From NCBI GenBank assembly GCA_964510515.1, contig CAZEAU010000011.1:4712-68711 (forward strand): a stretch of DNA of 64,000 nt, given 5' to 3'. The translations under genes and the position numbers were made by a program. How positions within the stretch are numbered: the stretch's first letter is position 1; every line of letters begins with the position of its first letter. This document shows positions 745-58,631 of the stretch, in pieces. Source of the stretch: an uncultured Actinomycetota bacterium. Its GTDB lineage: Bacteria > Actinomycetota > Geothermincolia > Geothermincolales > RBG-13-55-18. Under the pieces are notes generated by a model. The model was not told where the DNA came from, made no database searches, and saw nothing but the letters and a program-made list of their open reading frames with translations.

Positions 745-840
745 TGGCGGAGATGCGTAAGAATCGAACTTACCCGGCGCCCGTTACGACGCCGCACCGG
801 TTTTGAAGACCGGGCCGCCCACCAGGACGAATGCACCTCC
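745..840 (-). tRNA. selC: tRNA-Sec (anticodon UCA)
   Basis: Reverse complement GGAGGTGC...CCGGT-CT-TCA-AA-ACCGG...GGTAAGTTCGATTCTTAC-GCATCTCC-GCCA. 96 nt, 8-bp acceptor stem, long variable arm, encoded CCA, next to selAB. Confidence 0.97.
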
Positions 841-847
841 ACGCCAT

Positions 848-853
848 ATTATA
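848..853 (-). promoter_or_regulatory. TATAAT -10 box of selC
   Basis: ATTATA on the + strand, 7 nt upstream of the tRNA 5' end. Confidence 0.6.
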
Positions 854-902
854 ATCTTTCCCGCCGCCGCCGCCACCGCCATCTCCACGCGGACGAAGAT
901 GG

Positions 903-1270
903 CGCAGATGGGGTCAGGTCTTGTTCTTTGCCTGCTCCGCTATCTTGCCTGTTCGCACCCGGGGTTTTGCCGCGCATATGCAAGACGTGGCCCCCGGTGC
1001 CCCCCCGGCCCTCCGCGCCGCCGCGCCCGCCCTCTATTCAGCGCGGGTGACGCGGGAAGGATTCGCCTTCCGTTTCGCGCAGGAAGACCTGCAGGGCGGC
1101 GGACGCCTCCCGCAAGCGCTGCGAGAGGGCCTCTGCCTTCCTCGCCTCTGCCGCCGCGGCGGCATCCCGCGCCGATATCGCGCTGCGGCCGCAATGGTAT
1201 CCTCGGGCGGGCGGGAGGCTATGGCTCATGCCCGGCAGCGCCCGCGGAGCCTTGGCAGACCCTCCCCGCG
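903..1270. repeat. ~370-bp direct repeat, copy 2 (between selB and tRNA-Sec)
   Basis: Near-identical to 359-729. Confidence 0.95.
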
Positions 1271-1341
1271 ACCGCGGCGCCGACCAGCGGCGACAGGGCT
1301 GAAGGCAGGCTTAAGGCAGACCCCCACGCGCCCGAGGCGCC

Positions 1342-3249
1342 TCAGAAAGGCATGCGGTAATCGCCCTCGCGCCGGGTGACACGCTTGCGGTCGAAGTGCT
1401 CGAGCAGGGGGATGGCGTACTTGCGGCTGGCGCCGAGCATGTCCCGCACCTCCGCCACCTCCAGCCTCCCGCTGGCGGCGAGATGGGCGCGGATGCGCTC
1501 CTCCGCCTGGGAGAGCAGGCCGTGCGCCAGGAAATAGTCGGCGTTCACCTGCTCGATTTCCCCCTCCTCCACGAGCATGGCCAGCATGTCGCGCAGCGCT
1601 CCCCTCTCCAGGCCCGACGAGGCCAGCATCTCCTTGAAGAGAGGGGGGGAATAACCGCCCTCGCGGATGGAGCCCAGCAGCTCCTCCTTGACCGCCTGTT
1701 CCGCCGTGGAGAGCGACCTGCCCTTCCCGGCCAGGCGCACCCGCCCCGCCTCCACCTCCAGCGCCCCGGCGGAGACCAGGTCGCGCAGCAGGGCCTCGAA
1801 GACCTCGGGGGTGAGCGCCGCGTCCGCCCCCCGCCGCAGCGCTTCCTTCTCGACCCCCGGCTTGAGCGGGTTGGCCTCATGCATCTCCACGGTGGCGGCG
1901 GTCAGGCGCTCCCGCAGCGATGCCAGCAGGGCGGGGGTGACGAAGAGCGGGGCGCCGTCCCCCGCCACCTCCGCCATCTTCCCGCCGGAGATGAGCTCGG
2001 CGAGGGCGGAGTCCACCTCCGACTCACCCAGCTCGACCCGGGAGATGAGCTCCCGCCGCGAGAGGGGAACGCCCTTTTCCTCCACCGCCAGCAGCAGCAG
2101 CTCCCGCGGCATGCCCCGCTCCCGCACCTCCAGGCCCTCCAGCACCTCCCGGCGGTGGTGGCGGTGCTTGGCGGGGTGGGCATCGAGGATGACCCCGCCC
2201 CCGATGGTGGTCACCGGCGAGTAGCTGCGCAGGATGAAGCGGTCGCCGTAGGCGGCGATGAGCGGGCTCTCCAGGCGGAACTGCACATAGGCTTTCTCGC
2301 CCGGGGGAAGCTCCTCCCTGCCCCCCAGGAGGACCACCCGCGCCATGACCTCCCTGGTGCCGTGGTGAAGGCGCACCCGGGCGCGGTTCTTCAAGGGCCG
2401 CGGGGCGGCCGCGATGAGCTGGAGGCCGGCGTCGGCCATGAAGGTGGTGCGCAGGTAGCCGGGCGTCCCCAGCACGTCCCCCCGCTCGATGTCTGCGGTG
2501 GAGACGCCGGGCAGGTTCATGGCCACCCTCTGCCCGGCGAAGGCGCGCTCCACATCCCCCCCGTGCACCTGTATATTGCGCACGCGCACCTTCCTCCCCG
2601 AGGGCTGTATGACCCCCTCATCGCCGTCGGCGGCACTGCCCTCCCACATGGTCCCGGTGACCACCGTTCCTATTCCCTTGAGGGTGAAGACGCGGTCCAC
2701 GGGAAGGCGGAAGGGGCCGCTCTCGTCGCGACGGCCCAGGGTGGACGCCACGCGCAGCAGCGCCTCGCGCAGCTCGTCCAGGCCCCGGCCGGTGCGGCTG
2801 GAGGTGACCACGACCTCGGCGCCCTCCAGGGCCGTCCCCGCCACCGCCTCGGCGACATCCTCCCTGGCCAGCTCCAGCATATCCTCGTCGACCAGGTCCG
2901 CCTTGGTGATCACCAGCACCCCGTGCTTCACCCCCAGCAGGTCCACGATGGCCAGGTGCTCCAGCGTCTGTGGCATCACCCCATCGTCCGCCGCCACCGC
3001 CAGCAGCACCAGGTCGAAGCCGCTCGCGCCCGCCAGCATGTTCTTCACGAAGTGTTCATGCCCGGGGACGTCCACCACGCCGGCGGCGACCCCGCCCGGG
3101 AGGGCGATGTCCGCGAAGCCCAGCTCGATGGAGATGCCGCGCTCCTTTTCCTCCTTGAGGCGGTCGGTGTCCACCCCGGTGAGGGCACGGATGAGTTCCG
3201 TCTTGCCGTGGTCGATGTGCCCCGCCGTGCCGATGATGAAGCTCTTCAT
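1342..3249 (-). CDS. selB: Selenocysteine-specific translation elongation factor
   Basis: [12 protein letters not shown]-loop, [18 protein letters not shown]; C-terminal winged-helix region ending [13 protein letters not shown]...R.GDYR. Confidence 0.97.
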
Positions 3250-4673
3250 GCCCGCTCTGGCGTATCCGGGGGAGCCATGGCCGCGAAGGCCTCCGCCAGC
3301 AGGGAGACCTCGCCGTCGCTCACCGTGCGCATGTCCAGGATGACGCGGCCGTCCCTGATGCGGCAGATGACCGGCGGCTCGGAGGCGCGCAGCCTCCCCT
3401 CGATTTCGTTGGCGCTGAGGGAGGGGGAGACGACGGCGACCGTCCAGGTGGGGAGGTCCTCCAGGGGCAGGGCGCCCCCCCCGGCTCGGGACACGCCCTC
3501 CACCACCTCCGCTTGAAAGGCGTCCAGGGGGGCGAGCCCCTCCGCCAGGGCGCGGGCCCGGCGCCGCAGGGCCTCCTGCTCCGCCGTGAGCATGGCCAGG
3601 GTGGGTATCTCCCTCACCGCCCTCTCCGGATCCAGGTAGTGGCGCAGGGTGGCCTCCAGGGCGGCGATGGTCAGCTTGCCCACCCTGAGCGCCCTGGCCA
3701 GGGGGTGTGCGGCCATGATGTCGACGAGGTCCTTCCTGCCCAGGATGATGCCGGCCTGGGGTCCGCCCAGCAGCTTGTCCCCGCTGAAGCAGACGAGGTC
3801 GGCGCCCTCCTGCAGCGAGCGCATGATGGTCGGCTCATAGGAGAGGCCGTAGCCACTGAGGTCGATGTAAACGCCGCTCCCCAGGTCGTCGAGCAGCGGC
3901 AGCCCGAATTCGCGGGCCAGGGAGGCGAGGCCCGGGAGGTCCGCCTCGGAGGTGAAGCCCATGATGCGGTAGTTGCTGGGATGGGCGCGCATGAGCATTG
4001 CCGTCTCGCTGGTGATGGCGCGGCGGTAGTCGTCCAGGTAGGTCTTGTTGGTGGTCCCCACCTCCACCAGGCGCGCGCCGCTCTGGGCCATGACGTCCGG
4101 CAGGCGGAAGGAGCCGCCGATCTCGATGAGCTGCCCGCGGCTGACCACGACCTCCCTGCCCGCGGCGAGGGCGGTCAGCGCCAACAATACCGCCGCGGCG
4201 TTGTTGTTGACGACCAGCGCCGACTCGGCCCCGCTTAGCTCGCACAGCAGCTTCCTGAGATGCGCCTGCCGCGAGCCCCTCGAGCCGTCGTCGAGGTCGA
4301 ACTCGAGATTGTTGTAATGCGCCCCCGCCTCCGCCACGGCGGCGAGGGCGGGCGCGGAGAGGAGAGAGCGGCCCAGGTTGGTGTGCACGACTATGCCGGT
4401 GGCGTTGACCACCCTGCGCAGGCTCCACTGCAGCCTCTCCTCGACCTCTTTCTCCACCAGGTCAACCAGTTCCCTGGTGCCCGTCTCGATCTTCCCCAGC
4501 GACATCTCGTCCTTAGCGGCCAGAATGGCCGCGCGCACGCCGTCGAGCACCACCCGCGACGCCTCGCTGACCAGCTCGCGCGGTACCCCCCCGCCCAGCT
4601 TATGGCTGCGGTAAACGGCCTGGATGAGGTCGTTCACCGAGGACAGGTTCCTCAGGTAGTCCTTCTTGTCCAT
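3246..4673 (-). CDS. selA: L-seryl-tRNA(Sec) selenium transferase
   Basis: [52 protein letters not shown] (PLP lysine). 4-nt overlap with selB. Confidence 0.97.
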
Positions 4674-4815
4674 GGCATTAGTTTAAACGCTGCGGGGGTG
4701 GGCTGCCAGCGGCGCCCCCGGGGCCGTGCGCCGCCTCCCCATGTTTAACCCCCGGCGGGCCAAGCCCGGGGCGGGCGTGCCCCGCGAGCCTTTCAGCAGC
4801 CTTTGCGCCCCCGGC

Positions 4816-5856
4816 TCACGGGCTCACCCGTATGAGGGGCTCGCCGCGGCTCACGAATTCCCCGATACGGCCCCAGCCCATCTCGCCGCCCATCTCTCGC
4901 GCGAAGGCCTCCTCCCCCTCCGGCGGCAGCGCTATGAGCAGCCCCCCCGAGGTCTGGGGGTCGTAGAGGAGGTCGCGGTCGGTCTCGTCCACCTGCCGCG
5001 ATATCTGCGTCCGACCCGAGAGGAAGTCGCGGTTCTTATGCGCCCCCCCGGGGATCATGCCCTCGGCCGCCATGGCGCGGGCGCCCGCGTAGGCGGGGAG
5101 GAGGGATGAGGAGAGCTCGCATGCCAGGCCCCGGGAGGGCAGCATGTTGGAGAGATGCCCCACCAACCCGAAGCCGGTGACGTCGGTGCAGGCATGGGCA
5201 CCGGCGCACAGCGCGGCCCGGGAGGCCGCGGCGTTGAGCGCCGCCATGCCCTCGATGGCCTCGCGCATGTCCTCCTCGGCCAGGAAGCCGCCCTTGAGCG
5301 CGGTGGCGAGGATGCCCGTGCCCAGGGGCTTGGTCAGGAGCAGGAGGTCGCCCGCCTCGGCGCCCAGGCTGGTGAGCACGCGGTCGGGGTGCACCCTGCC
5401 GGTGACCGCCAGGCCGTACTTGGGCTCCTCGTCGTCGACGGAGTGCCCGCCGACCAGCACCGCGCCCGCCTCCTGTATCTTGTCCAGCCCCCCCTCGAGT
5501 ATGGTGGAGAGGATGTCCATGCCCAGCGAACAAGGGAAACAGACGATGTTCATGGCCGAGAGGGGCACGCCCCCCATGGCGTAGATGTCGCTCAGGGAGT
5601 TGGCCGCGGCTATCTGCCCGAAGAGGTAGGGGTCGTCCACGATGGGGGTGAAGAAATCGACGCTATGCACGAGGGCCGTCTCGCCGTCCAGCAGGTACAC
5701 GGCCGCGTCGTCGGGGGTGTCCAGCCCCACCAGGATGTCCTGTCGTTTCTCGCCCGGCGGCAGCAGGCGCAACAGTTTCTCCAGGTCCTCCGGACCCACT
5801 TTGGCCGCTCACCCCGACTTGCTGGAGAGAAGGGTCAGCCTGACCTTTTCCCGCAT
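4816..5856 (-). CDS. selD: Selenide, water dikinase, selenocysteine-containing (UGA at codon 16)
   Basis: The track ORF starts at the internal GTG 5799. The true start is ATG 5856 with an AAGGAGGT SD, giving MREKVRLTLLSSKSG-U-AAKVGPEDL (U at 5809-5811, conserved Lys three residues later). Also DDAAVY, DFFTPIVDDP, GGHS, TDVTGFG, DPQTSGGLL motifs; 346 aa. Confidence 0.95.
5783..5797 (-). promoter_or_regulatory. Putative bacterial SECIS hairpin of selD
   Basis: Minus-strand GGGUCC-GGA-GGACCU stem-loop beginning 11 nt after the UGA, the spacing known for E. coli-type SECIS elements. Confidence 0.7.
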
Positions 5857-7870: not shown

Positions 7871-7921
7871 GCGGTTTCCTCCTCCTTCGATCGGGCAGGG
7901 CGTTCCCGAGTATTATAAGCT

Positions 7922-8070
7922 AATTCGACCGCGCTGGGAGATGAAAGCCGCTGGGGGGGCCGCCGGTACGCATGCCCGCGGGGAAAGAAAAATAGGCCAA
8001 TTCGACCGCGCTGGGAGATGAAAGCCGCTGGGGGGGCCGCCGGTACGCATGCCCGCGGGAAAAGAAAAAT
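7922..8070. repeat. 72-bp tandem direct repeat x2 (period 77) abutting the tRNA-Pro 3' end
   Basis: AATTCGACCGCGCTGGGAGATGAAAGCCGCTGGGGGGGCCGCCGGTACGCATGCCCGCGGG.AAAGAAAAAT at 7922-7993 and 7999-8070, with a single mismatch. Confidence 0.95.
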
Positions 8071-8147
8071 GGTCGGGGTGAGAGGATTTGAACCTCCGAC
8101 CTCTGCGTCCCGAACGCAGCGCGCTGACCAAACTGCGCCACACCCCG
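8070..8147 (-). tRNA. tRNA-Pro (anticodon CGG)
   Basis: Reverse complement CGGGGTGTGGCGCAGTTTGGTCAGCGCG-CTGCG-TT-CGG-GA-CGCAG-AGGTCGGAGGTTCAAATCCTCTCACCCCGACCA. Confidence 0.97.
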
Positions 8148-19607: not shown

Positions 19608-19796
19608 CTACTTGAGGCCGCCTTTGCGCCCGATCTCCTGGTAGAACTCCGTGCCGTATCTTTCCTTCGTGGTCTGGCCGCCCTTGCGGCCGCCCTTTTG
19701 CCCGATCTTCTGGTAGAACTCCGTGCCGTACTTCTTGAGCGTGGTCTTACCTCCCTTGCGGCCTGCCTCACTCCTGGTCAGTTTCCGGTTCGCCAT
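19608..19796 (-). CDS. KGG-repeat general stress protein (GsiB/Em-like)
   Basis: EAGRKGG, EFYQKIGQKGG, EFYQEIGRKGG repeats. ATG 19796 with an AAGGAGG SD. Confidence 0.9.
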   Translation of the reverse strand: MANRKLTRSEAGRKGGKTTLKKYGTEFYQKIGQKGGRKGGQTTKERYGTEFYQEIGRKGGLK

Positions 19797-19866
19797 CAGC
19801 GATCCCTCCTTGCCAAATGCCCTACCGGACGCCGCTATCAGCGACGCAAGCTGCTCAATACTTGTT

Positions 19867-19892
19867 TTACCCAATATCTGGCGGGTTTAATC
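19867..19892 (-). promoter_or_regulatory. SigB/SigF-type stress promoter
   Basis: GATTAA-N14-GGGTAA upstream of the KGG gene. Confidence 0.6.
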
Positions 19893-49632: not shown

Positions 49633-50982
49633 ATGAAAAGACAAGAGAGGCTCAAGAAGCGCAAGCGTAAACGCAGGCAGACCATCATCAAGTCGATCCT
49701 GGCCCTGGTGCTGGTCACCGGCCTGGTCGTGGGCATCATGAACTTCGATGCCATGAAGACCTGGGCGGGCAAGCATTATTTCCGCATGCGCTGGGTCAAG
49801 ACCTCCATGGACGAGGAGAGGGTGGCGGAACTCGCGCCCCTGCTCACCCGCTATGACCTCTCCAAGAACATCAACGTGCTCTTCATCGGCATCGACAAGG
49901 GCAGCGTCCCCGGGGAGGAGGGCAATACCCGCTCGGACGTGATGATCCTGGCCTCGGTAAACGTGGAGAATAAAAAGGCCGTGCTCGTCTCCTTCCCCCG
50001 CGATACCCGGGTGAATATCCCCGGGTACGGCACGGAGAAGATAAACGCCGCCCACTCCTTCGAGGGGCCCGCGGGGGCGGTGAAGGTGGTGGAGCAGGTC
50101 TCCGGCGTGGACGTCAACGACTACGCCGAGGTGGACTTCGAGGCCTTCAAGAACATCGTGGACGCCATCGGCGGGGTCACGCTTCACCTCGACTACCCCA
50201 TCTCCGATCCCAAGGTGGGGTATCTTCCCAAGGGGGACGTGTACCTCACCGGGGAGACCGGCCTCATCCTGGTGAGGAGCCGCGCTCTGCCGCGCGGTGA
50301 CCTCGACCGTATCGACAACCAGAAAAAGTTCCTCAAGGCTATGATGGAGAAACTGGTGGAGATCAAGGACCTGCAGGCCTTGCTCAAGGTGCTCGATGCC
50401 ACGGTGAGATACCTCAAGACCACCCTGGAACCCGATCTCATCTTCGCGCTGGCGGAAGCCCTGCAGGGCATGCAGGTGGAGGACGTGGAGTTCGTCACCC
50501 TGCCCGGAGACGAGCCGAGCCCGGCGCCCGGCCAGCCCTGGTATTACGTCCACGACCAGGCCGCTACCGCCACCCTTTTCGAGAACATCAGGCTCTACTG
50601 CAGCGCCCGCACCCCGGAGGAGCAGGCGGCGGAGGCGGCGCGGAGGGAGCGGGAGGAGGGCCTGGACGAAGGCGCCGAGCAGGTCGACCGCTCCGGCGTG
50701 GACCTGGCGGTGCTCAACGGCGTGCGCTGGGAGGGCATGGCCGGGCGGGTCGCGGAGATCATGCGGGACAGGGGATACGGGCGCGTGAGCACCGGCAACA
50801 CCGTGAACCCCTATGAGAAGACCACCGTCTATTATGCCCCGGGATACGCCGCGGCGGCCCGCACGGCGGCCCGCGACCTCAAACCCGGCGCCCCCTACGT
50901 CGTCGAGGAGGACGCCGACGTGGCCATCACCCATGATGCCCATGTCGTCCTGGTCATCGGCAAGGACTATGTCGACAACTGA
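49633..50982 (+). CDS. LCP (LytR-CpsA-Psr) family protein with C-terminal LytR_C domain
   Basis: NVLFIG.D, RSD.MIL, S.PRDT.V, KINAA, R.R....D..R..NQ, VLNG...G.A. Confidence 0.92.
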   Translation: MKRQERLKKRKRKRRQTIIKSILALVLVTGLVVGIMNFDAMKTWAGKHYFRMRWVKTSMDEERVAELAPLLTRYDLSKNINVLFIGIDKGSVPGEEGNTRSDVMILASVNVENKKAVLVSFPRDTRVNIPGYGTEKINAAHSFEGPAGAVKVVEQVSGVDVNDYAEVDFEAFKNIVDAIGGVTLHLDYPISDPKVGYLPKGDVYLTGETGLILVRSRALPRGDLDRIDNQKKFLKAMMEKLVEIKDLQALLKVLDATVRYLKTTLEPDLIFALAEALQGMQVEDVEFVTLPGDEPSPAPGQPWYYVHDQAATATLFENIRLYCSARTPEEQAAEAARREREEGLDEGAEQVDRSGVDLAVLNGVRWEGMAGRVAEIMRDRGYGRVSTGNTVNPYEKTTVYYAPGYAAAARTAARDLKPGAPYVVEEDADVAITHDAHVVLVIGKDYVDN

Positions 50983-51064
50983 CCCGCCCGCGGCCTCGGC
51001 CGCACCCCTGTCTTGCCGTGGGATATAATCTGCGCAGATATCGTGCACGAGCAAGGGAAGGCGG

Positions 51065-51970
51065 ATGAAACGGGGGTATCTTCTCATCCTGGGGGCTATC
51101 GCCCTCTTCAGCAGCGTCGAGGTGGTTGCCAAATATCTCCAGGCGGGGGAGGGTGCCGCGGGGCGGGTCGGCCCCCTGCAGGTGGCGACGCTGCGGTTTC
51201 TCTTCGGGGCGGCCTTTGTCCTCGTCCTGCTGCTGGGGCGGCGGCAGGGGGGGTTCGTCGCGGCGGCAAGGGAGGACGGTCTGGCCATCGTCTTGCTGGG
51301 CGCGGTGGGCGTGTTTCTAACCTTCTTCCTCCTCCACGAGGGCATCGAAGCGGCCAGCGCCTCCACGGCGGCGGTGGTATTCTCCATGAACCCCGTGTTC
51401 ACCGTGCTCATCGCGACCGCCATCCTGCGCGAACGCCTGGGGCTCATGGGCTGGTTGGGGGTGGGGATCGGGCTCGTCGGCGCTTTCGCGGCGGTCACCG
51501 GCTTCCGCTTCGCGGGGCTCTTCTCGCGGGGGGACTTCAGGGGGGGCGTGCTCGTGCTCATCTCCGCCTTTACCTGGTCTCTGTACACCGTTTACGGCAA
51601 GAGGTACTCCGAGCGCTACGGCAGCCTCACCCTCTCCCTCCTGACCATGTCCTGCGGCTCGCTCCTGCTGGCGGCGCTGCTCGCCTGCCGCGGGGGCTGG
51701 GGGGAGGTGGCGGCCTACGGCGCGCGGGCCTGGGTCTGGCTGCTCTACCTGGGGGTGGTCACCGTGGGCATCGGCTACATCCTCTACTTCGAGGGCATGC
51801 GGCGCGTCCCCGCCTCGCGCGGGGCGAGCCTTTTCTACCTCAAGCCGGTGCTGGCCCTGCTCTTAGCCCATCTCGCGCTGGGGGAGCCCATCTCTTACGC
51901 CCTCCTTCTCGCCGCGCTCCTGGTGGCCTCGGGGGTCTTGCTGGTGACCTTCCCGCGCGCCCGCCCGTGA
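51065..51970 (+). CDS. DMT/EamA family transporter
   Basis: About ten TM helices; LRF, PVF, ERL. Confidence 0.9.
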   Translation: MKRGYLLILGAIALFSSVEVVAKYLQAGEGAAGRVGPLQVATLRFLFGAAFVLVLLLGRRQGGFVAAAREDGLAIVLLGAVGVFLTFFLLHEGIEAASASTAAVVFSMNPVFTVLIATAILRERLGLMGWLGVGIGLVGAFAAVTGFRFAGLFSRGDFRGGVLVLISAFTWSLYTVYGKRYSERYGSLTLSLLTMSCGSLLLAALLACRGGWGEVAAYGARAWVWLLYLGVVTVGIGYILYFEGMRRVPASRGASLFYLKPVLALLLAHLALGEPISYALLLAALLVASGVLLVTFPRARP

Positions 51971-52094
51971 GGGGTGGGATGGCGGAACCTGCACGCTGCG
52001 CCTGCGACCTTCCCGCGCGCCCGCCCGTGAGGACTCCGCCTCCCCGCCCGGGGTTAGCGCTCCAGGTGACCTTCCCGCGCGCCCGCCCGTGAGG
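51946..52094. repeat. Three identical 27-bp repeats separated by 33- and 35-bp spacers
   Basis: GACCTTCCCGCGCGCCCGCCCGTGAGG at 51946, 52006 and 52068. The first copy is the 3' end of the EamA gene. Confidence 0.95.
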
Positions 52095-52208
52095 ACGGCG
52101 TGGCCTTGGCCCGCGGGCCTCCGCACCCGCCCGCCGGCGAGGGGCGGTGCTATAATTACCCCCAACGGCAGCGTTAACGGAACGTCGAGCGTCGATCGGA
52201 GCTTAGGG

Positions 52209-53222
52209 ATGAAGGTGAGACCGCTTCGCCTGGCAGCCGCCGCCTGTTCTCTTTTGCTCATCTTGCCTCTCCTCGCCTGCTCCTGTGGCGGCGGGGAGGC
52301 GGCTTTCCGGGTCGCGCTGGTCGCGCCGGAGCGCGACGGGAAGGGCGAGGGCCGCATCGCGGTGGCCGAATACGGCGCGCGCAGGGTGGAGGCGGAGCTG
52401 GGCGTGGAGGTGGACCTGATTGTCCCCGCCTCGCCCCGGGACCTCGAGGACATCTTCTCCGCCGGGGAGGGGGGCTACGACCTGGTCATATCCCTGGGCC
52501 AGGACTCCTCGCTGGCCGTGCTGGCCGCCCGCCCCGGGGACACGGACATAAGCACCTGCGCCCTGGATATAGAGGTCCCGCAGGCGGTGGAGGGCGAGCA
52601 GGGGGTCGCCCTGGTCCGCTACCGCGTCGAGGAGGGCGCCTACCTTTGCGGATACCTTGCCGGATGGTTGAGCAGCCGCAACGACCACCCGCTGACCAAC
52701 CCCATGCCCCTGGTGGCCTTCATCGGGGCCAGAAGCGACCCCCTCATGGTCCATTACGACAACGGCTTCGGCAAGGGGGCCAGCGCGGGCATCGGCAAGG
52801 AGGGCACCCACGCTTATTACCTGGAGACGGCCGACGACCTGCAGCAGGCACGCGCCCATGCCGAGGAGGCCCTGAAGAAGGGAGCGGACATCATCTTCTG
52901 CACCCCTGGCGCGTTCAACGCGGAGGTGGTCAAGGTGGTCGAGGAGAAGGATGCCCTGGTCATACTGGTGGGCTCCGACCGTTCCTCGGAATCGCCCGCT
53001 CACGTGCTCACCTCGCTCCTGCTCCGGGACGACAACACCGTCTTCGCCGCCGTTAAGGCCGCCCTGGACGGAGACCTGCGGGAAGGCCGCCAGGTATGGG
53101 GGGCGGAGCGCGGCGCTTGGAGTCTGGCGCCCTTTCGCGGGCACGACCCCTACATCCGGCGCGAGCTCAAGGAGAGCCTGCGCAAAGCGGAGCAGGAGGT
53201 GCCCACGCTCGACTTCACCTGA
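52209..53222 (+). CDS. BMP-family ABC transporter substrate-binding lipoprotein
   Basis: Lipobox LAC; YR.EEG.YL.G..AG, GAD.IF, IG.D-like motifs. Confidence 0.8.
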   Translation: MKVRPLRLAAAACSLLLILPLLACSCGGGEAAFRVALVAPERDGKGEGRIAVAEYGARRVEAELGVEVDLIVPASPRDLEDIFSAGEGGYDLVISLGQDSSLAVLAARPGDTDISTCALDIEVPQAVEGEQGVALVRYRVEEGAYLCGYLAGWLSSRNDHPLTNPMPLVAFIGARSDPLMVHYDNGFGKGASAGIGKEGTHAYYLETADDLQQARAHAEEALKKGADIIFCTPGAFNAEVVKVVEEKDALVILVGSDRSSESPAHVLTSLLLRDDNTVFAAVKAALDGDLREGRQVWGAERGAWSLAPFRGHDPYIRRELKESLRKAEQEVPTLDFT

Positions 53223-53889: not shown

Positions 53890-56667
53890 TTGCCTGACAG
53901 CGATTTCCCGATGGGCATGACCGAGCCCTACATTCCAGAGATTCTTCCCGTCCTGCCCCTCAAGGAGACGGTTATCTATCCCCATATCATCGTCCCGCTG
54001 CTGATCACCAGGGAGGAATCCGTCAAGCTCATCGACGATGCACTGGCGGCGGACCGCCTGGTGGCCGCGGTGGCCAGCCGGGAGGAGGTGGAGACGCCGT
54101 CGCCGCAGCAGCTCTACGATATCGGCACCGCGGCGGCCATCATCCGCATGCTCAAGCTGCCGGACGGCTCCATGCAGCTCTTCGTGCAGGGCGTGCAGAG
54201 GATACATGTGCGCGAATACGTGGAGCAGCAGCCATACCTCAAAGCCCGGGTGGAGAAGGCCAGGGAGGACGTAGAGGAGACGGTGGAGCTGGAGGGCCTG
54301 GCGCGCAATGTGCTCACGCAGTTCAAGAAGATGGTCACCCTCGCCCCCTACCTGCCCAATGAGATATTCATCGCCGCCATGAATATCGGCGAGCCCAACA
54401 ACCTGGCCGACTTCATCGCCTCCAACATCAACATCGAGGTGGGGGAGAAGCAGGAACTGCTCGAGGCCCTCGACATCAAGGACCGCCTGGAGAAGCTCAC
54501 CGTATTCCTCAACAAGGAGATCGAGATCCTGGAGATCGGTTCGCGCATACAGTCCGAGGTGCAGACGGAGATGTCCAAGAGCCAGCGTGAGTACTTCCTG
54601 CGCGAGCAGCTCAAGGCCATACAGAAGGAGCTGGGCGAGGCCGACGAGCGCACCATGGAGATAAACGAGTTCCGCGAGAAGATGGACGAGAGTGGCATGC
54701 CCGAGGCGGCGCGCAAAGAGGCGGAACGCGAGCTCGACCGCCTGGCCAAGATGCCCGTGGCCGCGGCCGAATACACCGTGGCCCGCACCTACCTGGAATG
54801 GCTCACCAGCCTGCCCTGGAACGCGAGCACGGAGGACAACCTGGATATCAAGCGGGCCCGGCAGGTGCTGGACGAGGACCACTACGACCTGGACAAGGTC
54901 AAGGACCGCATCGTGGAGTACCTGGCCGTGCGCAAGCTCAAGGAGGATATGAAGGGCCCCATCCTCTGCTTCGTGGGGCCGCCTGGCGTGGGCAAGACCT
55001 CCCTGGGCCAGTCTATCGCACGCGCCTTGGGGCGCAAGTTCGCGCGCATCTCCCTGGGCGGCATGCACGACGAGGCGGAGATCAGGGGGCATCGCCGCAC
55101 CTATATCGGGGCCCTCCCGGGCCGCATCATCAGGGGCATACAGAGGGCCGGCTCCAACAACCCGGTGTTCATGCTCGACGAGGTGGACAAGATCGGCGCC
55201 GACTTCCGCGGCGACCCCGCCTCGGCCCTGCTGGAGGTGCTGGACCCGGAGCAGAACCATTCCTTTTCCGACCACTACCTCGACGTGGATTTCGACCTCT
55301 CCAAGGTCATGTTCATCACCACCGCCAATACCCCCGTACCCATACACCCCGCCCTCCTCGACCGCATGGAGGTGCTCGAGCTTCCCGGCTACACCGAGGT
55401 GGAGAAGGTGCATATCGCCACCGACCACCTCCTGCCCCGCCAGTTCGATGCCCACGGACTGAGGAAGAGCCAGATCGCCATCGGCGAGGAGGCGCTGCGG
55501 GCCATCATCCGCAACTACACCCGCGAGGCGGGAGTGCGCAACCTGGAGCGGCAGATAGCCGCCGTGTGCCGCAAGGTGGCCACCGATATCGCCTCCGGCA
55601 AGCGCAAGAGCAGGAAGGTGGCGGAGAAGGACCTGCACGAGCTCCTGGGCCCCTCCCGCTACCGCTTCGAGGTCCTGGAGGAGGAAGACGAGATAGGGGT
55701 GGCCACCGGCCTGGCCTGGACGGAGGCGGGCGGAGACGTCCTCTTCGTGGAGGCCCAGGTCATGCCGGGGGAGGGGGACCTTATCCTCACCGGCAAGCTG
55801 GGGGACGTCATGCAGGAATCGGCCAAGGCGGCCCTTACCTACTGCCGCAGCACGGCGGGCAGCTACGGGGTGGACGCCGGTTTCTTCCGCGGCAACGACA
55901 TGCACGTGCATGTGCCCGCGGGCGCCATCCCCAAGGACGGGCCCAGCGCGGGCGTGACCATGGTCACCGCCCTCATGTCCTCCATCACCAGAAGGAAGGT
56001 GCGCAAGGAGGTCGGCATGACCGGCGAGATAACCTTGCGGGGCAAGGTCCTTCCTATCGGGGGGCTCAAGGAGAAGGTGCTGGCGGCCCACCGCGCCGGC
56101 GTGAAGAAGGTCATCATCCCCGAGGAGAGCCGGAAGTACCTGGAGGAGATACCCGCCTTCATCCGCAAGGACATCAAGTTCATACCCGTAAGGCACATCG
56201 AGGAGGTGCTCAAGGTGGCCCTGCACCCGCCGGTGAAGGCGGGCGCAGCGGGGCAGGGGGTGCCCGCGGCGGGAAAGGCCGCCAAAAAAGCGGCTGTGAA
56301 GCCATCCAAGCCGGCGGTGAAAAAGGCGGCCGGGAAGCCATCCAAGCCGGCGGTGAAAAAGGCGACCGGGAAGGCATCCAAGCCGGCGGTGAAAAAGGTG
56401 GCCGGGAAAGCATCCAAGGCGGCGGTGAAAAGCTCCGCGAGCAAGCCCGCTAAAAAGAAGGCCGTGAAAGCATCCAAGCCGGCGGCGAAAAAAGCGGCCG
56501 TGAAGTCATCCAAGCCCGCGGCCTCCAAAGCCTCCAAGGCGGCGGTGAAAAGCTCCGCGAGCAAGCCCGCTAAAAAGAAGGCCGTGAAGGCATCCAGGCC
56601 GGCGGCGAAAAAAGCGGCGAAGAAGACCGCGAGGCCCGCCGCAAAGAAGACCTCCGGGCTGCGGTAA
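53890..56667 (+). CDS. lon: ATP-dependent Lon protease with a 147-aa Lys/Ala/Pro-rich C-terminal extension
   Basis: GPPGVGKTS, RRTYIGALPG, LDEVDK, PKDGPSAG (catalytic Ser), IGGLKEK (catalytic Lys). Confidence 0.97.
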   Translation: MPDSDFPMGMTEPYIPEILPVLPLKETVIYPHIIVPLLITREESVKLIDDALAADRLVAAVASREEVETPSPQQLYDIGTAAAIIRMLKLPDGSMQLFVQGVQRIHVREYVEQQPYLKARVEKAREDVEETVELEGLARNVLTQFKKMVTLAPYLPNEIFIAAMNIGEPNNLADFIASNINIEVGEKQELLEALDIKDRLEKLTVFLNKEIEILEIGSRIQSEVQTEMSKSQREYFLREQLKAIQKELGEADERTMEINEFREKMDESGMPEAARKEAERELDRLAKMPVAAAEYTVARTYLEWLTSLPWNASTEDNLDIKRARQVLDEDHYDLDKVKDRIVEYLAVRKLKEDMKGPILCFVGPPGVGKTSLGQSIARALGRKFARISLGGMHDEAEIRGHRRTYIGALPGRIIRGIQRAGSNNPVFMLDEVDKIGADFRGDPASALLEVLDPEQNHSFSDHYLDVDFDLSKVMFITTANTPVPIHPALLDRMEVLELPGYTEVEKVHIATDHLLPRQFDAHGLRKSQIAIGEEALRAIIRNYTREAGVRNLERQIAAVCRKVATDIASGKRKSRKVAEKDLHELLGPSRYRFEVLEEEDEIGVATGLAWTEAGGDVLFVEAQVMPGEGDLILTGKLGDVMQESAKAALTYCRSTAGSYGVDAGFFRGNDMHVHVPAGAIPKDGPSAGVTMVTALMSSITRRKVRKEVGMTGEITLRGKVLPIGGLKEKVLAAHRAGVKKVIIPEESRKYLEEIPAFIRKDIKFIPVRHIEEVLKVALHPPVKAGAAGQGVPAAGKAAKKAAVKPSKPAVKKAAGKPSKPAVKKATGKASKPAVKKVAGKASKAAVKSSASKPAKKKAVKASKPAAKKAAVKSSKPAASKASKAAVKSSASKPAKKKAVKASRPAAKKAAKKTARPAAKKTSGLR

Positions 56668-57782: not shown

Positions 57783-57858
57783 GCCCCTGTAGCTCAGTGG
57801 ACAGAGCAATGGATTCCTAATCCATGTGTCGCCAGTTCGATTCTGGCCAGGGGCTCCA
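57783..57858 (+). tRNA. tRNA-Arg (anticodon CCU)
   Basis: GCCCCTGTAGCTCAGTGGACAGAGCA-ATGGA-TT-CCT-AA-TCCAT-GTGTCGCCAGTTCGATTCTGGCCAGGGGCTCCA. Confidence 0.97.
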
Positions 57859-58133: not shown

Positions 58134-58200
58134 AGCGGGCCCGCACGGAAAGAAAGACGGCGGGAGGGCTGGAGCCCCCCCGCCTCCTCCGTCCCCTCCG

Positions 58201-58556
58201 GTGGCACATCCGTGGCACATCCGGGGTCAACCCCAACAATCGCCATAGCACTTCCGGTGGCACTTCTGGGGTCAACCCTCGAGAGGGACGCCAGCGAAAA
58301 CCATTTGTAAGTGGCACATCCGGGGTCAACCCCAACAATCGCCATAGCACTTCCGGTGGCACTTCTGGGGTCAACCCTCGAGAGGGACGCCAGCGAAAAC
58401 CATTTGTAAGTGGCACAGGGTGGGGTTGACACCGTAAGGGACATCAGCTGAAGAAACGTCGGTTCTGGCACTTCCCGGGGTTGACCCCGGAAAGGACGGA
58501 AGGGAAGTTGGGGAGTTAAGTTATGGCACTTCCCGGGGTTGACCCCGGAAGGGACG
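58201..58556. repeat. REP/BIME-like array including an exact 99-bp tandem duplication
   Basis: (G)TGGCAC + GGGGTCAACCCC/GGGGTTGACCCC palindrome units at 58212, 58257, 58311, 58356, 58410 (degenerate), 58466 and 58524. 58212-58310 is identical to 58311-58409. Confidence 0.9.
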
Positions 58557-58631
58557 CCGGGGGAGCGGCGGGCACCGTCCCCATCCGGGCGAAGTCGTTG
58601 ACGCCGCGTCGCCGGCGGCGGTCTCTCGCGC

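What the first reader, a model, noticed from the sequence alone, without database searches (positions are those of the whole stretch)
51946..52094. CRISPR-sized mini-array built from the last codons of an EamA transporter gene
Three identical 27-bp repeats with 33- and 35-bp spacers have CRISPR-like geometry, but the first repeat is the gene's own 3' end (…TFPRARP-stop), and no cas genes or leader are present. The spacers are not independent: 51972-51986 pairs with 52035-52049 (13 of 15 positions including one G-U), enclosing repeat 2 in a long hairpin. The end of spacer 2 also resembles the coding sequence before repeat 1. Possible readings: serial att-site regeneration by elements that integrate at the gene 3' end, a structured 3'-UTR RNA, or an orphan array.
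Basis: partly seen in the sequence, partly recalled or inferred. Interest (0 to 1): 0.65.

Follow-up and report, generated by a model that had tools for sequence, protein, structure and literature searches.

The report
Gene-end copies mimicking a CRISPR array
The last 27 bases of a transporter gene are repeated three times exactly, plus once in decayed form, with unrelated 33-35-base fillers; this looks like a tiny CRISPR array but is most likely an inert scar of duplicating insertions.

Summary
GACCTTCCCGCGCGCCCGCCCGTGAGG occurs exactly three times (51946, 52006, 52068). Copy 1 is the native end of the eamA gene. The fillers (33 and 35 nt) are unrelated to each other.

I add a fourth, decayed copy (52116-52142, 21/30 in the 30-nt register). 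It lies just upstream of the conserved TGCTATAAT promoter of the next gene, bmp.

Relatives at 83-85% protein identity have one gene end followed by 12-13 nt (L064, L065) or overlapping the promoter (L062). The repeat therefore derives from the gene.

- It is not a working CRISPR. There are no cas genes in 64 kb, no leader, no resemblance to Rfam CRISPR repeat families, no repeat hairpin and no spacer matches.
- It is not a structured RNA. Folding is no better than shuffled sequence.
- No sign of an integrated element was found at this gene end in 36 related loci.
- The array is identical in metagenome assemblies from six kinds of habitat. A sister strain (~97-98% identical) carries different DNA at the same junction.

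Best reading: a recent, neutral scar made by two duplicating insertions (27-32 bp copied, 30-35 bp of unrelated DNA inserted). That footprint matches off-target CRISPR spacer integration ("neo-CRISPR", confidence about 0.33). Replication or repair template switching is nearly as likely (about 0.30).

The parts
51065..51970 (+). eamA (DMT/EamA-family transporter gene, 301 aa). Its last 25 nt plus 2 nt after the stop form repeat copy 1.
   Evidence: ORF. Two Pfam PF00892 EamA hits. The C-terminus VT[FL]P... is conserved in homologues.
51946..51972 (+). Repeat copy 1 (R1): the native gene end, ACC TTC CCG CGC GCC CGC CCG TGA + GG.
   Evidence: 20/25 identical to the gene end of the relative L064, by inspection of the sequences printed.
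51973..52005 (+). Filler/spacer 1 (33 nt, 73% GC).
   Evidence: No second copy in the window, in phage or plasmid records, in IMG/VR or in the host metagenomes.
52006..52032 (+). Repeat copy 2 (R2), exact. Left flank TGC, right flank AC.
52033..52067 (+). Filler/spacer 2 (35 nt, 74% GC). It starts with AC and ends with GGT, the same bases that flank the gene-end repeat elsewhere. It contains a 13-mer that is the reverse complement of 52290-52302.
   Evidence: (I5).
52068..52094 (+). Repeat copy 3 (R3), exact. Left flank GGT as in copy 1, right flank AC as in copy 2.
52095..52115 (+). Filler 3 (21 nt), with the palindrome GGCCCGCGGGCC at 52108-52119.
52116..52142 (+). Fourth, degenerate copy of the repeat (21/30 in the 30-nt register 52113-52142). 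Lies just upstream of the bmp promoter.
   Evidence: (D1).
52148..52156 (+). Extended -10 promoter element TGCTATAAT of the downstream bmp gene, conserved in nearly all relatives.
   Evidence: Sequence; conservation.
52209..53222 (+). bmp (BMP-family lipoprotein gene, 337 aa), the downstream neighbour in most relatives.
   Evidence: PF02608.

Best explanation
The structure is an inert, strain-specific scar, not a working element.

**Shown by the sequence.** The native end of eamA, stop codon included, was copied twice in recent events. Each event placed about 30-35 bp of DNA unrelated to the neighbourhood between the copies. That is a target duplication of 27-32 bp around a short insert. Both events sit in the neutral gap between the eamA stop and the bmp promoter, so both genes stay intact. 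An older duplication left the fourth, decayed copy.

**Inferred.** The only known machinery that duplicates about 28 bp of target around an insert of about 33 bp is the CRISPR adaptation integrase Cas1-Cas2. It has been reported to do this off-target and so spawn 'neo-CRISPR' arrays (Nivala et al. 2018, as cited in PMC6698737, PMC11788318 and bioRxiv 10.1101/148544). I therefore take two rounds of off-target spacer integration at the gene end as the single most likely origin. The array is now an orphan with no evident function.
For: - Three exact repeats separated by unrelated fillers.
- Unit lengths of 60 and 62 nt. One consistent reading of the flanks gives duplications of 27 and 29 bp and two inserts of exactly 33 bp.
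- The repeat is orthologous to the single gene end of relatives. The extra copies are therefore derived.
- Fillers are not copied from local DNA. S1 p = 0.56 and S2 p = 0.22 against the upstream gene. k-mer cover of the flanking 2 kb on each side gives p = 0.28-0.75. There is no second copy in the window.
- Each filler occurs only once in the complete contig sets of four metagenomes that cover the host at 5-18x.
- The units cannot be a diverged simple tandem repeat. The non-coding repeats are 100% identical while the fillers are unrelated, and Tandem Repeats Finder finds nothing here.
- The terminal copy is degenerate.
- The junction differs between close strains.
- The concept of off-target integration is documented.
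Against: - No cas gene in the 64-kb window. No CRISPR array in the window or in about 370 kb of related loci. Whether the organism has Cas1-Cas2 at all is unknown.
- The repeat matches no Rfam CRISPR repeat family even at E <= 10, and it has no hairpin.
- No protospacer was found.
- A constant 27-bp ruler requires that the GGT and AC flank matches arose by chance. Otherwise the duplicated length varies from 27 to 32 bp. Two- to three-nt junction matches are what microhomology-mediated repair would leave.
- Part of spacer 2 (13 nt) is an inverted copy of a site 241 nt downstream (p about 0.006 uncorrected).
- The fourth copy is spaced 48 nt from copy 3, not about 61.
- The same strain shows no spacer turnover in 16 runs.
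- This genome also carries plain tandem duplications.
- A relative (L006) has a decayed slippage-type triplication of its own gene end.
Confidence: 0.33

Rival explanations
1. Replication or repair error without CRISPR proteins. One complex event, or two, of fork stalling and template switching (or end joining with captured filler DNA) re-copied the gene end and left short fillers. The result is a neutral scar.
For: - Junction microhomologies: GGT is shared by the left flanks of copies 1 and 3, and AC by the right flanks of copies 2 and 3.
- A 13-nt inverted copy of 52290-52302 lies inside spacer 2.
- The genome is prone to local duplication: 77 nt x2, 99 nt x2 and 72 nt x2.
- The same gap in L006 holds a decayed triplication whose junction lies at a GGGGAT microhomology.
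- A single complex event would explain three equally perfect copies and the lack of a confirmed one-spacer intermediate.
- It needs no unseen cas locus.
Against: - Fillers show no enrichment for local templates. They have no full-length source in the host metagenomes.
- Two fillers of nearly equal, spacer-like length and nearly identical duplication boundaries are not predicted.
- No canonical G-quadruplex motif is present, and no fold better than chance was found that would explain repeated stalling here.
Confidence: 0.3
2. Remnants of site-specific integration. Elements that use the eamA 3' end as their attachment site integrated in series, each regenerating the gene end, and were later almost wholly deleted.
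For: - Repeated identity blocks of 27-32 bp at a gene's 3' end are typical att cores (general knowledge).
- In a sister strain (runs X17 and X18) the gene end is followed, after the same AC, by unrelated DNA of only 47% GC for at least 90 nt.
Against: - The gaps are 33-35 nt and hold no integrase or other gene.
- It would need two independent deletions that each leave about 33 nt.
- No relative among 36 loci has a distal copy of its gene end within 0.1-4 kb of the flank held for it.
- In the one relative checked by ORF listing (L035), the gene after eamA looks like a glycoside hydrolase by inspection of its translation, not a mobile element.
- In X17 there is no second repeat copy within 173 nt upstream of the fourth copy.
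- The repeat occurs in no IMG/VR viral contig and gives only chance hits in plasmids.
Confidence: 0.1
3. Functional DNA or RNA sites. The three identical 27-mers are kept identical by selection, for example as binding sites for a regulator of bmp or as part of the eamA 3' UTR.
For: - Perfect identity of two non-coding copies.
- Position directly upstream of a conserved promoter.
- A contig from a run labelled RNA-Seq spans the array.
Against: - No relative has the copies, yet eamA and bmp and their promoter are conserved.
- There is no fold signal on either strand and no Rfam hit.
- The flank mosaic is explained by duplication history.
- The population shows almost no polymorphism anywhere in the region, so identity needs no selection.
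- The RNA-labelled run has a METAGENOMIC source and may contain DNA.
Confidence: 0.08
4. A genuine CRISPR array, orphan or served by a distant cas locus, that happens to start inside the gene end.
For: Repeat and spacer geometry, and a degenerate last repeat.
Against: - The repeat is the vertically inherited gene end, so it is not an imported CRISPR repeat.
- There is no leader and no cas gene.
- It matches no known repeat family and has no hairpin.
- Spacers have no matches.
- There is no turnover.
- The repeat occurs nowhere else in the window, in JGI metagenome contigs or in IMG/VR.
Confidence: 0.03

Closest known systems
Neo-CRISPR arrays from off-target Cas1-Cas2 spacer integration (Nivala, Shipman & Church 2018; seen here only through citing papers PMC6698737, PMC11788318, PMC9456107, PMC6546382 and bioRxiv 10.1101/148544)
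   Same: A non-CRISPR genomic sequence of repeat length is duplicated exactly around an insert of spacer length. Repeated hits build a mini-array without a leader or adjacent cas genes.
   Different: No Cas1-Cas2 is known for this organism. Resemblance of the target to a native repeat cannot be tested. The duplicated length is 27-32 bp depending on how the flanks are read. No protospacer was found.
Low-evidence 'orphan CRISPR' calls (arrays with fewer than four spacers, which CRISPRCasFinder grades at its lowest evidence level; from my own knowledge, not run here)
   Same: A short array, no cas genes nearby, and a repeat overlapping a coding sequence.
   Different: Most such calls are diverged tandem repeats inside genes. 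Here the repeats are perfect, the fillers are truly unrelated, and two of the copies lie outside the gene.
attL/attR duplications of a gene's 3' end by integrative elements
   Same: An identity block of about 30 bp that regenerates the end of the target gene. A sister strain carries foreign-looking DNA at the same boundary.
   Different: There is no element between the copies (33-35 nt only), no integrase, and no occupied site in 36 related loci.
Simple slippage duplications, such as the triplicated gene end in relative L006 and the 77-nt and 99-nt tandem duplications in this window
   Same: Same neutral gap between eamA and the bmp promoter, and a local origin from the gene end.
   Different: In those cases whole units are homologous and decay evenly. 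Here only 27-32 nt are shared and the rest is unrelated.

Membership tests
CRISPR array (canonical) | Three or more near-identical direct repeats of 23-47 bp separated by unique spacers of similar length | tested here: met
   Three exact 27-nt repeats plus one degenerate copy; spacers of 33 and 35 nt, with a third of 21 nt.
CRISPR array (canonical) | cas genes adjacent or elsewhere in the genome | tested here: inconclusive
   No Cas family among 59 ORFs of the 64-kb window; only weak helicase-type hits with E >= 2e-8. The contigs held do not extend beyond the window. The rest of the genome is unavailable.
CRISPR array (canonical) | Repeat belongs to a known CRISPR repeat family or forms the typical hairpin | tested here: not met
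   No CRISPR-DR match in Rfam even at E <= 10. Fold z-scores of the repeat are +1.0 and +0.8 on the two strands.
CRISPR array (canonical) | Non-coding, A+T-rich leader upstream of the first repeat | tested here: not met
   Upstream of copy 1 is the eamA coding sequence. GC is 0.68 in the 2-kb bin 50001-52000, close to the window's range.
CRISPR array (canonical) | Spacers match mobile elements | tested here: inconclusive
   No significant hits in 50,697 phage records, in IMG/VR or in co-resident metagenome contigs. Most natural spacers have no match either (my own knowledge).
CRISPR array (canonical) | Spacer content turns over between strains | tested here: not met
   The array is identical in 16 runs from six habitat types. 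The variants seen are not array-like.
Neo-CRISPR (off-target Cas1-Cas2 integration) | Exact duplication of a repeat-length target around a spacer-length insert that is unrelated to local DNA | tested here: met
   geometry; no local source.
Neo-CRISPR (off-target Cas1-Cas2 integration) | Host encodes an active Cas1-Cas2 whose native repeat and spacer lengths match (about 27-29 and 33) | not testable with these tools
   Only 64 kb of the genome is available.
Neo-CRISPR (off-target Cas1-Cas2 integration) | Target resembles the native leader-repeat junction | not testable with these tools
   The native repeat is unknown. A similarity to actinobacterial type I-E repeats that I recall from memory (TTCCCCGC...GTGAG) is only a lead.
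Integrative-element att sites at a gene's 3' end | Two core copies flank an element that encodes an integrase | tested here: not met
   Only 33-35 nt lie between the copies. No ORF fits there.
Integrative-element att sites at a gene's 3' end | Occupied and empty sites among relatives | tested here: inconclusive
   No distal copy of the gene end in 36 related loci. A sister strain has unrelated 47%-GC DNA after the gene end, but only 30 nt on each side could be read.
Structured cis-acting RNA (3' UTR element or terminator) | Fold more stable than shuffled sequence, or a covarying structure | tested here: not met
   z = +2.31 for 51930-52210; z = -1.14 for the hairpin. No terminator-like site lies in the array. 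Covariation is not testable because no relative has the array.
Simple tandem repeat (slippage) | Head-to-tail units homologous over their whole length | tested here: not met
   Not reported by Tandem Repeats Finder. Filler identity in register is 21-33%. See also the unit alignment.

The most novel reading that the evidence does not exclude
This would be a natural birth of a CRISPR-like array caught in an uncultured actinobacterium. The adaptation integrase hit the 3' end of a housekeeping transporter gene twice. It turned the gene's last codons into a repeat and stored two foreign 33-nt fragments. The event left both neighbouring genes intact and has become fixed in a lineage found worldwide.
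Probability: 0.3. Interest if true: 0.65.

Novelty: new member of a known kind. Interest (0 to 1): 0.4.

Why it matters
If the off-target integration reading is right, this would be one of very few natural examples of how CRISPR arrays can arise from ordinary sequence. The starting sequence is still identifiable, because it is the end of a conserved gene whose unduplicated state is visible in relatives. It would also give a concrete test substrate for the integrase of an uncultured lineage.

If the reading is wrong, the locus is still a useful warning. Perfect repeats with spacer-sized unique fillers can arise at gene ends without any CRISPR system, and they will be picked up by array finders. 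In either case there is no sign that the structure does anything for the cell today.

Tried and rejected
- **Structured RNA.** Folds of the whole region, of the proposed hairpin and of the repeat on both strands are no better than shuffles. Rfam gives nothing at gathering score or at E <= 10.
- **Selenocysteine read-through.** The window encodes tRNA-Sec, SelA and SelB. I considered read-through of the eamA TGA with a downstream hairpin. I dropped it: Rfam reported no selenocysteine-insertion (SECIS) element or any other credible family here, the hairpin is not significant, and the extension would be unconserved.
- **Spacer origin.** No hits in phage records, IMG/VR 20-21-mers, the window or whole contig sets of host metagenomes.
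- **Repeat elsewhere.** Absent from JGI metagenome contigs and IMG/VR. Only chance hits in plasmids.
- **Hidden homology between fillers, or between fillers and the gene.** Several alignments reached p of about 0.03-0.05 against shuffles. They were not significant against the real genome background. Only the 13-mer in spacer 2 stands out.
- **G-quadruplex as a stalling site.** No canonical motif in the array or at the gene end of eight relatives.
- **Walking beyond the window to find cas genes.** The contigs on record end within the window.
- **Recovering the variant strains' sequences.** No near-identical fragments turned up in a protein search with the last 120 residues of EamA. The EamA, Bmp and HSP20 clusters each have a single member. 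The variant's junction sequence matched nothing in the loci held, in IMG/VR, or in plasmid or phage records.
- **Reading Nivala et al. 2018 directly.** The paper is not held.
- The first protein search timed out.

Full report
**1. What is there**

The 27-mer GACCTTCCCGCGCGCCCGCCCGTGAGG occurs exactly three times, at 51946, 52006 and 52068. It occurs nowhere else in the window with up to three mismatches, and none were expected by chance. Start-to-start spacing is 60 and 62 nt.

The flanks form a mosaic. Copies 1 and 3 also share GGT on the left (30 nt identical). Copies 2 and 3 also share AC on the right (29 nt identical).

Copy 1 is the end of a 301-aa ORF (51065-51970...VTFPRARP*) with two EamA domains. 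The fillers are 33 nt (51973-52005) and 35 nt (52033-52067). They are unrelated to each other, and Tandem Repeats Finder does not call the region.

A fourth, degenerate copy lies at 52113-52142 (21/30). It is the only other match of that quality in 128 kb of both strands, so it is unlikely to be chance. It ends 5 nt before TGCTATAAT (52148-52156), the extended -10 element of the next gene. That gene is a BMP-family lipoprotein starting at 52209.

**2. Context**

The window has about 69% GC. It comes from an uncultured member of Actinomycetota. The relatives that carry a genus name are 'Candidatus Solincola' MAGs at 57-68% protein identity; the closer relatives (up to 81%) are unnamed Actinomycetota MAGs.

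The window is housekeeping DNA: SelA/SelB/tRNA-Sec, MurJ, exonuclease VII, Lon and an LCP-family protein. A scan of 59 ORFs against defence-system models found no Cas protein, only weak helicase-type similarities. No other CRISPR-like array exists in the window or in about 370 kb of related loci.

**3. Direction of descent**

Thirty-six related loci were compared. The closest relatives (83-85% protein identity: L062, L064, L065) and most others have a single gene end. It is followed by 12-13 nt and then TGCTATAAT, or in L062 it overlaps the promoter.

By inspection of the sequences printed, the window's repeat is 20/25 identical, with no gaps, to the gene end of L064 (...VTFPPARE*). The motif VT[FL]P is conserved across the family. 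The repeat is therefore the vertically inherited gene end, and copies 2 and 3 derive from it. This excludes an imported CRISPR repeat into which the ORF happens to run.

**4. What it is not**

- **Not a structured RNA.** The 281-nt region folds worse than its shuffles (z = +2.31). The repeat alone has no structure on either strand. Rfam reports only three tRNAs in the window, and only two chance-level matches (E = 2.1 and 3.4, to unrelated eukaryotic and viral families) in the region at E <= 10.
- **Not a simple tandem repeat that diverged.** Two of the perfect copies are non-coding. Even decay cannot leave them 100% identical while the fillers are at chance-level identity.
- **No sign of att sites around an element.** The gaps are 33-35 nt. 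No relative has a distal copy of its gene end in the 0.1-4 kb of flank held for it. In the one relative checked by ORF listing (L035), the gene that follows eamA looks like a glycoside hydrolase by inspection of its translation, not a mobile element.
- **Not a working CRISPR.** See the membership table.

**5. Where the fillers come from**

- No second copy in the window with up to 9 mismatches.
- No exact word longer than 13 nt anywhere in the window.
- No significant phage hit.
- No IMG/VR hit for four 20-21-mers.
- Each filler occurs exactly once, in the array itself, in the complete contig sets of four metagenomes where the host is covered 5-18x.

Apparent similarities between the fillers and the gene, the repeat or the fourth copy reached p of about 0.03-0.05 against shuffles. 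They were not significant against the real genome background.

One exception remains. CCGCCTCCCCGCC in filler 2 is the exact reverse complement of 52290-52302, 241 nt downstream (p about 0.006 for a 251-nt neighbourhood, uncorrected).

**6. Population**

Sixteen public runs carry the array without a single difference or alternative joint. They come from bioreactor, landfill, biofilm, biogas, wastewater and soil samples.

Four further wastewater runs hold a sister lineage about 2-3% diverged in the flanks.

- **X17 and X18.** The gene end is followed, after the same AC, by unrelated DNA: ACCCCTATCTTCCTGCGTTACTTGGAGATA..., 47% GC, at least 90 nt. Similarity to the window resumes only at the fourth copy (52116), preceded by at least 173 nt of other sequence.
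- **X20.** A 141-nt contig joins 51942 to 52065, which would be a single-copy form. Coverage is about 3x and patchy. The joint runs through the 30-mer shared by copies 1 and 3, so a shortcut in the k = 31 assembly graph cannot be excluded.

I could not retrieve more of these variants. The gap between the gene end and the bmp promoter region is thus strain-variable. The two extra units are specific to one widespread lineage.

**7. History readable from the flanks**

Copy 1 reads GGT|R|GG, copy 2 reads TGC|R|AC and copy 3 reads GGT|R|AC. R+AC is also the junction seen in the sister strains, so AC is the ancestral right flank. Three decompositions fit:

- (A) A 32-bp duplication with a 30-bp insert, then a 27-bp duplication with a 33-bp insert in the gene-proximal copy.
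- (B) A 27-bp duplication with a 33-bp insert, then a 29-bp duplication with a 33-bp insert in the distal copy, with GGT matching by chance.
- (C) 27-bp duplications both times, with inserts of 33 and 35 bp and both flank matches arising by chance.

All three describe two duplicating insertions at nearly the same borders. The fourth copy, 48 nt after copy 3, looks like an older and simpler duplication. Its repeat decayed while its promoter-proximal tail stayed under selection.

**8. Mechanism**

*Shown:* target duplication of 27-32 bp around 30-35 bp of non-local DNA, twice, at the same site, leaving eamA and the bmp promoter intact.

*Inferred:* the enzyme. Cas1-Cas2 is the only known machinery with this footprint. 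Off-target integration that spawns 'neo-CRISPR' arrays has been reported, with circumstantial natural cases in two other species (Nivala et al. 2018, as cited). I could not read the paper itself.

Against this reading: no cas locus is in view, the repeat has no CRISPR-like features, no protospacer was found, and the flank matches look like junction microhomology. A replication or repair template-switching event, possibly a single complex one, is almost as likely. It would fit the genome's other duplications and the slippage-type triplication of the gene end in relative L006. However, it does not predict spacer-sized non-local fillers.

My estimates: off-target Cas1-Cas2 0.33; template switching or repair 0.30; att remnants 0.10; functional sites 0.08; genuine CRISPR 0.03; the remainder unknown.

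**9. Verdict**

It is not a functional CRISPR, RNA element or att pair. It is most likely an inert scar. It is of moderate interest as a candidate natural neo-CRISPR and as a clean example of a CRISPR look-alike. The genome-wide cas inventory of this organism would settle the question.

Noticed in passing
window 58190-58565: A perfect 99-nt x2 tandem duplication (58212-58409). There are also at least six copies of a motif TGGCAC(A/T)TCC(G/T)GGGGT(C/T)(A/G)ACCCC, built on the palindrome GGGGTCAACCCC. They include an exact 27-nt pair at 58466 and 58524, spaced 58 nt. The region lies downstream of tRNA-Arg(CCT) (57783-57858) and a small ORF. It could be regulator binding sites or the edge of an integrated element.
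   Followed up: partly
window 7915-8068: A 77-nt x2 tandem duplication (96% identical) directly next to the 3' end of tRNA-Pro(CGG) (8070-8147, minus strand).
   Followed up: no
window 745-5799: A selenocysteine gene cluster: tRNA-Sec (745-840, -), SelB (1342-3249, -), SelA (3246-4673, -) and an AIRS-domain, SelD-like gene (4816-5799, -). The organism therefore decodes UGA as selenocysteine in some genes.
   Followed up: partly
window 56230-56667: The Lon protease (53890-56667) ends in a tail of roughly 145 aa rich in Lys, Ala, Pro and Ser (...KPSKPAVKKAAGK...). It is encoded by nested 36-, 60- and 120-nt repeats and resembles histone-H1-like DNA-binding tails.
   Followed up: no
window 52148-52156 and the same position in loci L004-L065: The extended -10 element TGCTATAAT in front of bmp, and the 5' UTR motif CGATCGGAGC-N-ATAGATG, are conserved across relatives down to about 60% protein identity, although the spacer to eamA varies from 0 to about 290 nt. 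Similar TATAAT boxes stand before eamA (about 51022) and tRNA-Arg (about 57737).
   Followed up: partly
L006 (CAZQFX010000249.1) 1045-1190: A relative at 75% identity has three decayed copies of its own eamA 3' end, in units of about 49 and 47 nt. The junction lies at a GGGGAT microhomology. The last copy still reads in frame to a TAA inside the TATAAT box, as the intact gene does in L062.
   Followed up: partly
runs X17 and X18, junctions at window 51972 and 52116: A sister strain (2-3% diverged) carries unrelated DNA between the eamA end and the bmp promoter region: at least 90 nt read from the eamA side (its first 30 nt are 47% GC) and at least 173 nt read from the bmp side. Only 30 nt at each side could be read (ACCCCTATCTTCCTGCGTTACTTGGAGATA... 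and ...TCATCCTCGCGCAGCCGGGGGCGCAGGCGC). No match was found in any collection searched.
   Followed up: partly
window 19611-19754: A 72-nt x2 tandem duplication (79% identical) inside a minus-strand ORF (19608-19874), giving an internal protein repeat.
   Followed up: no
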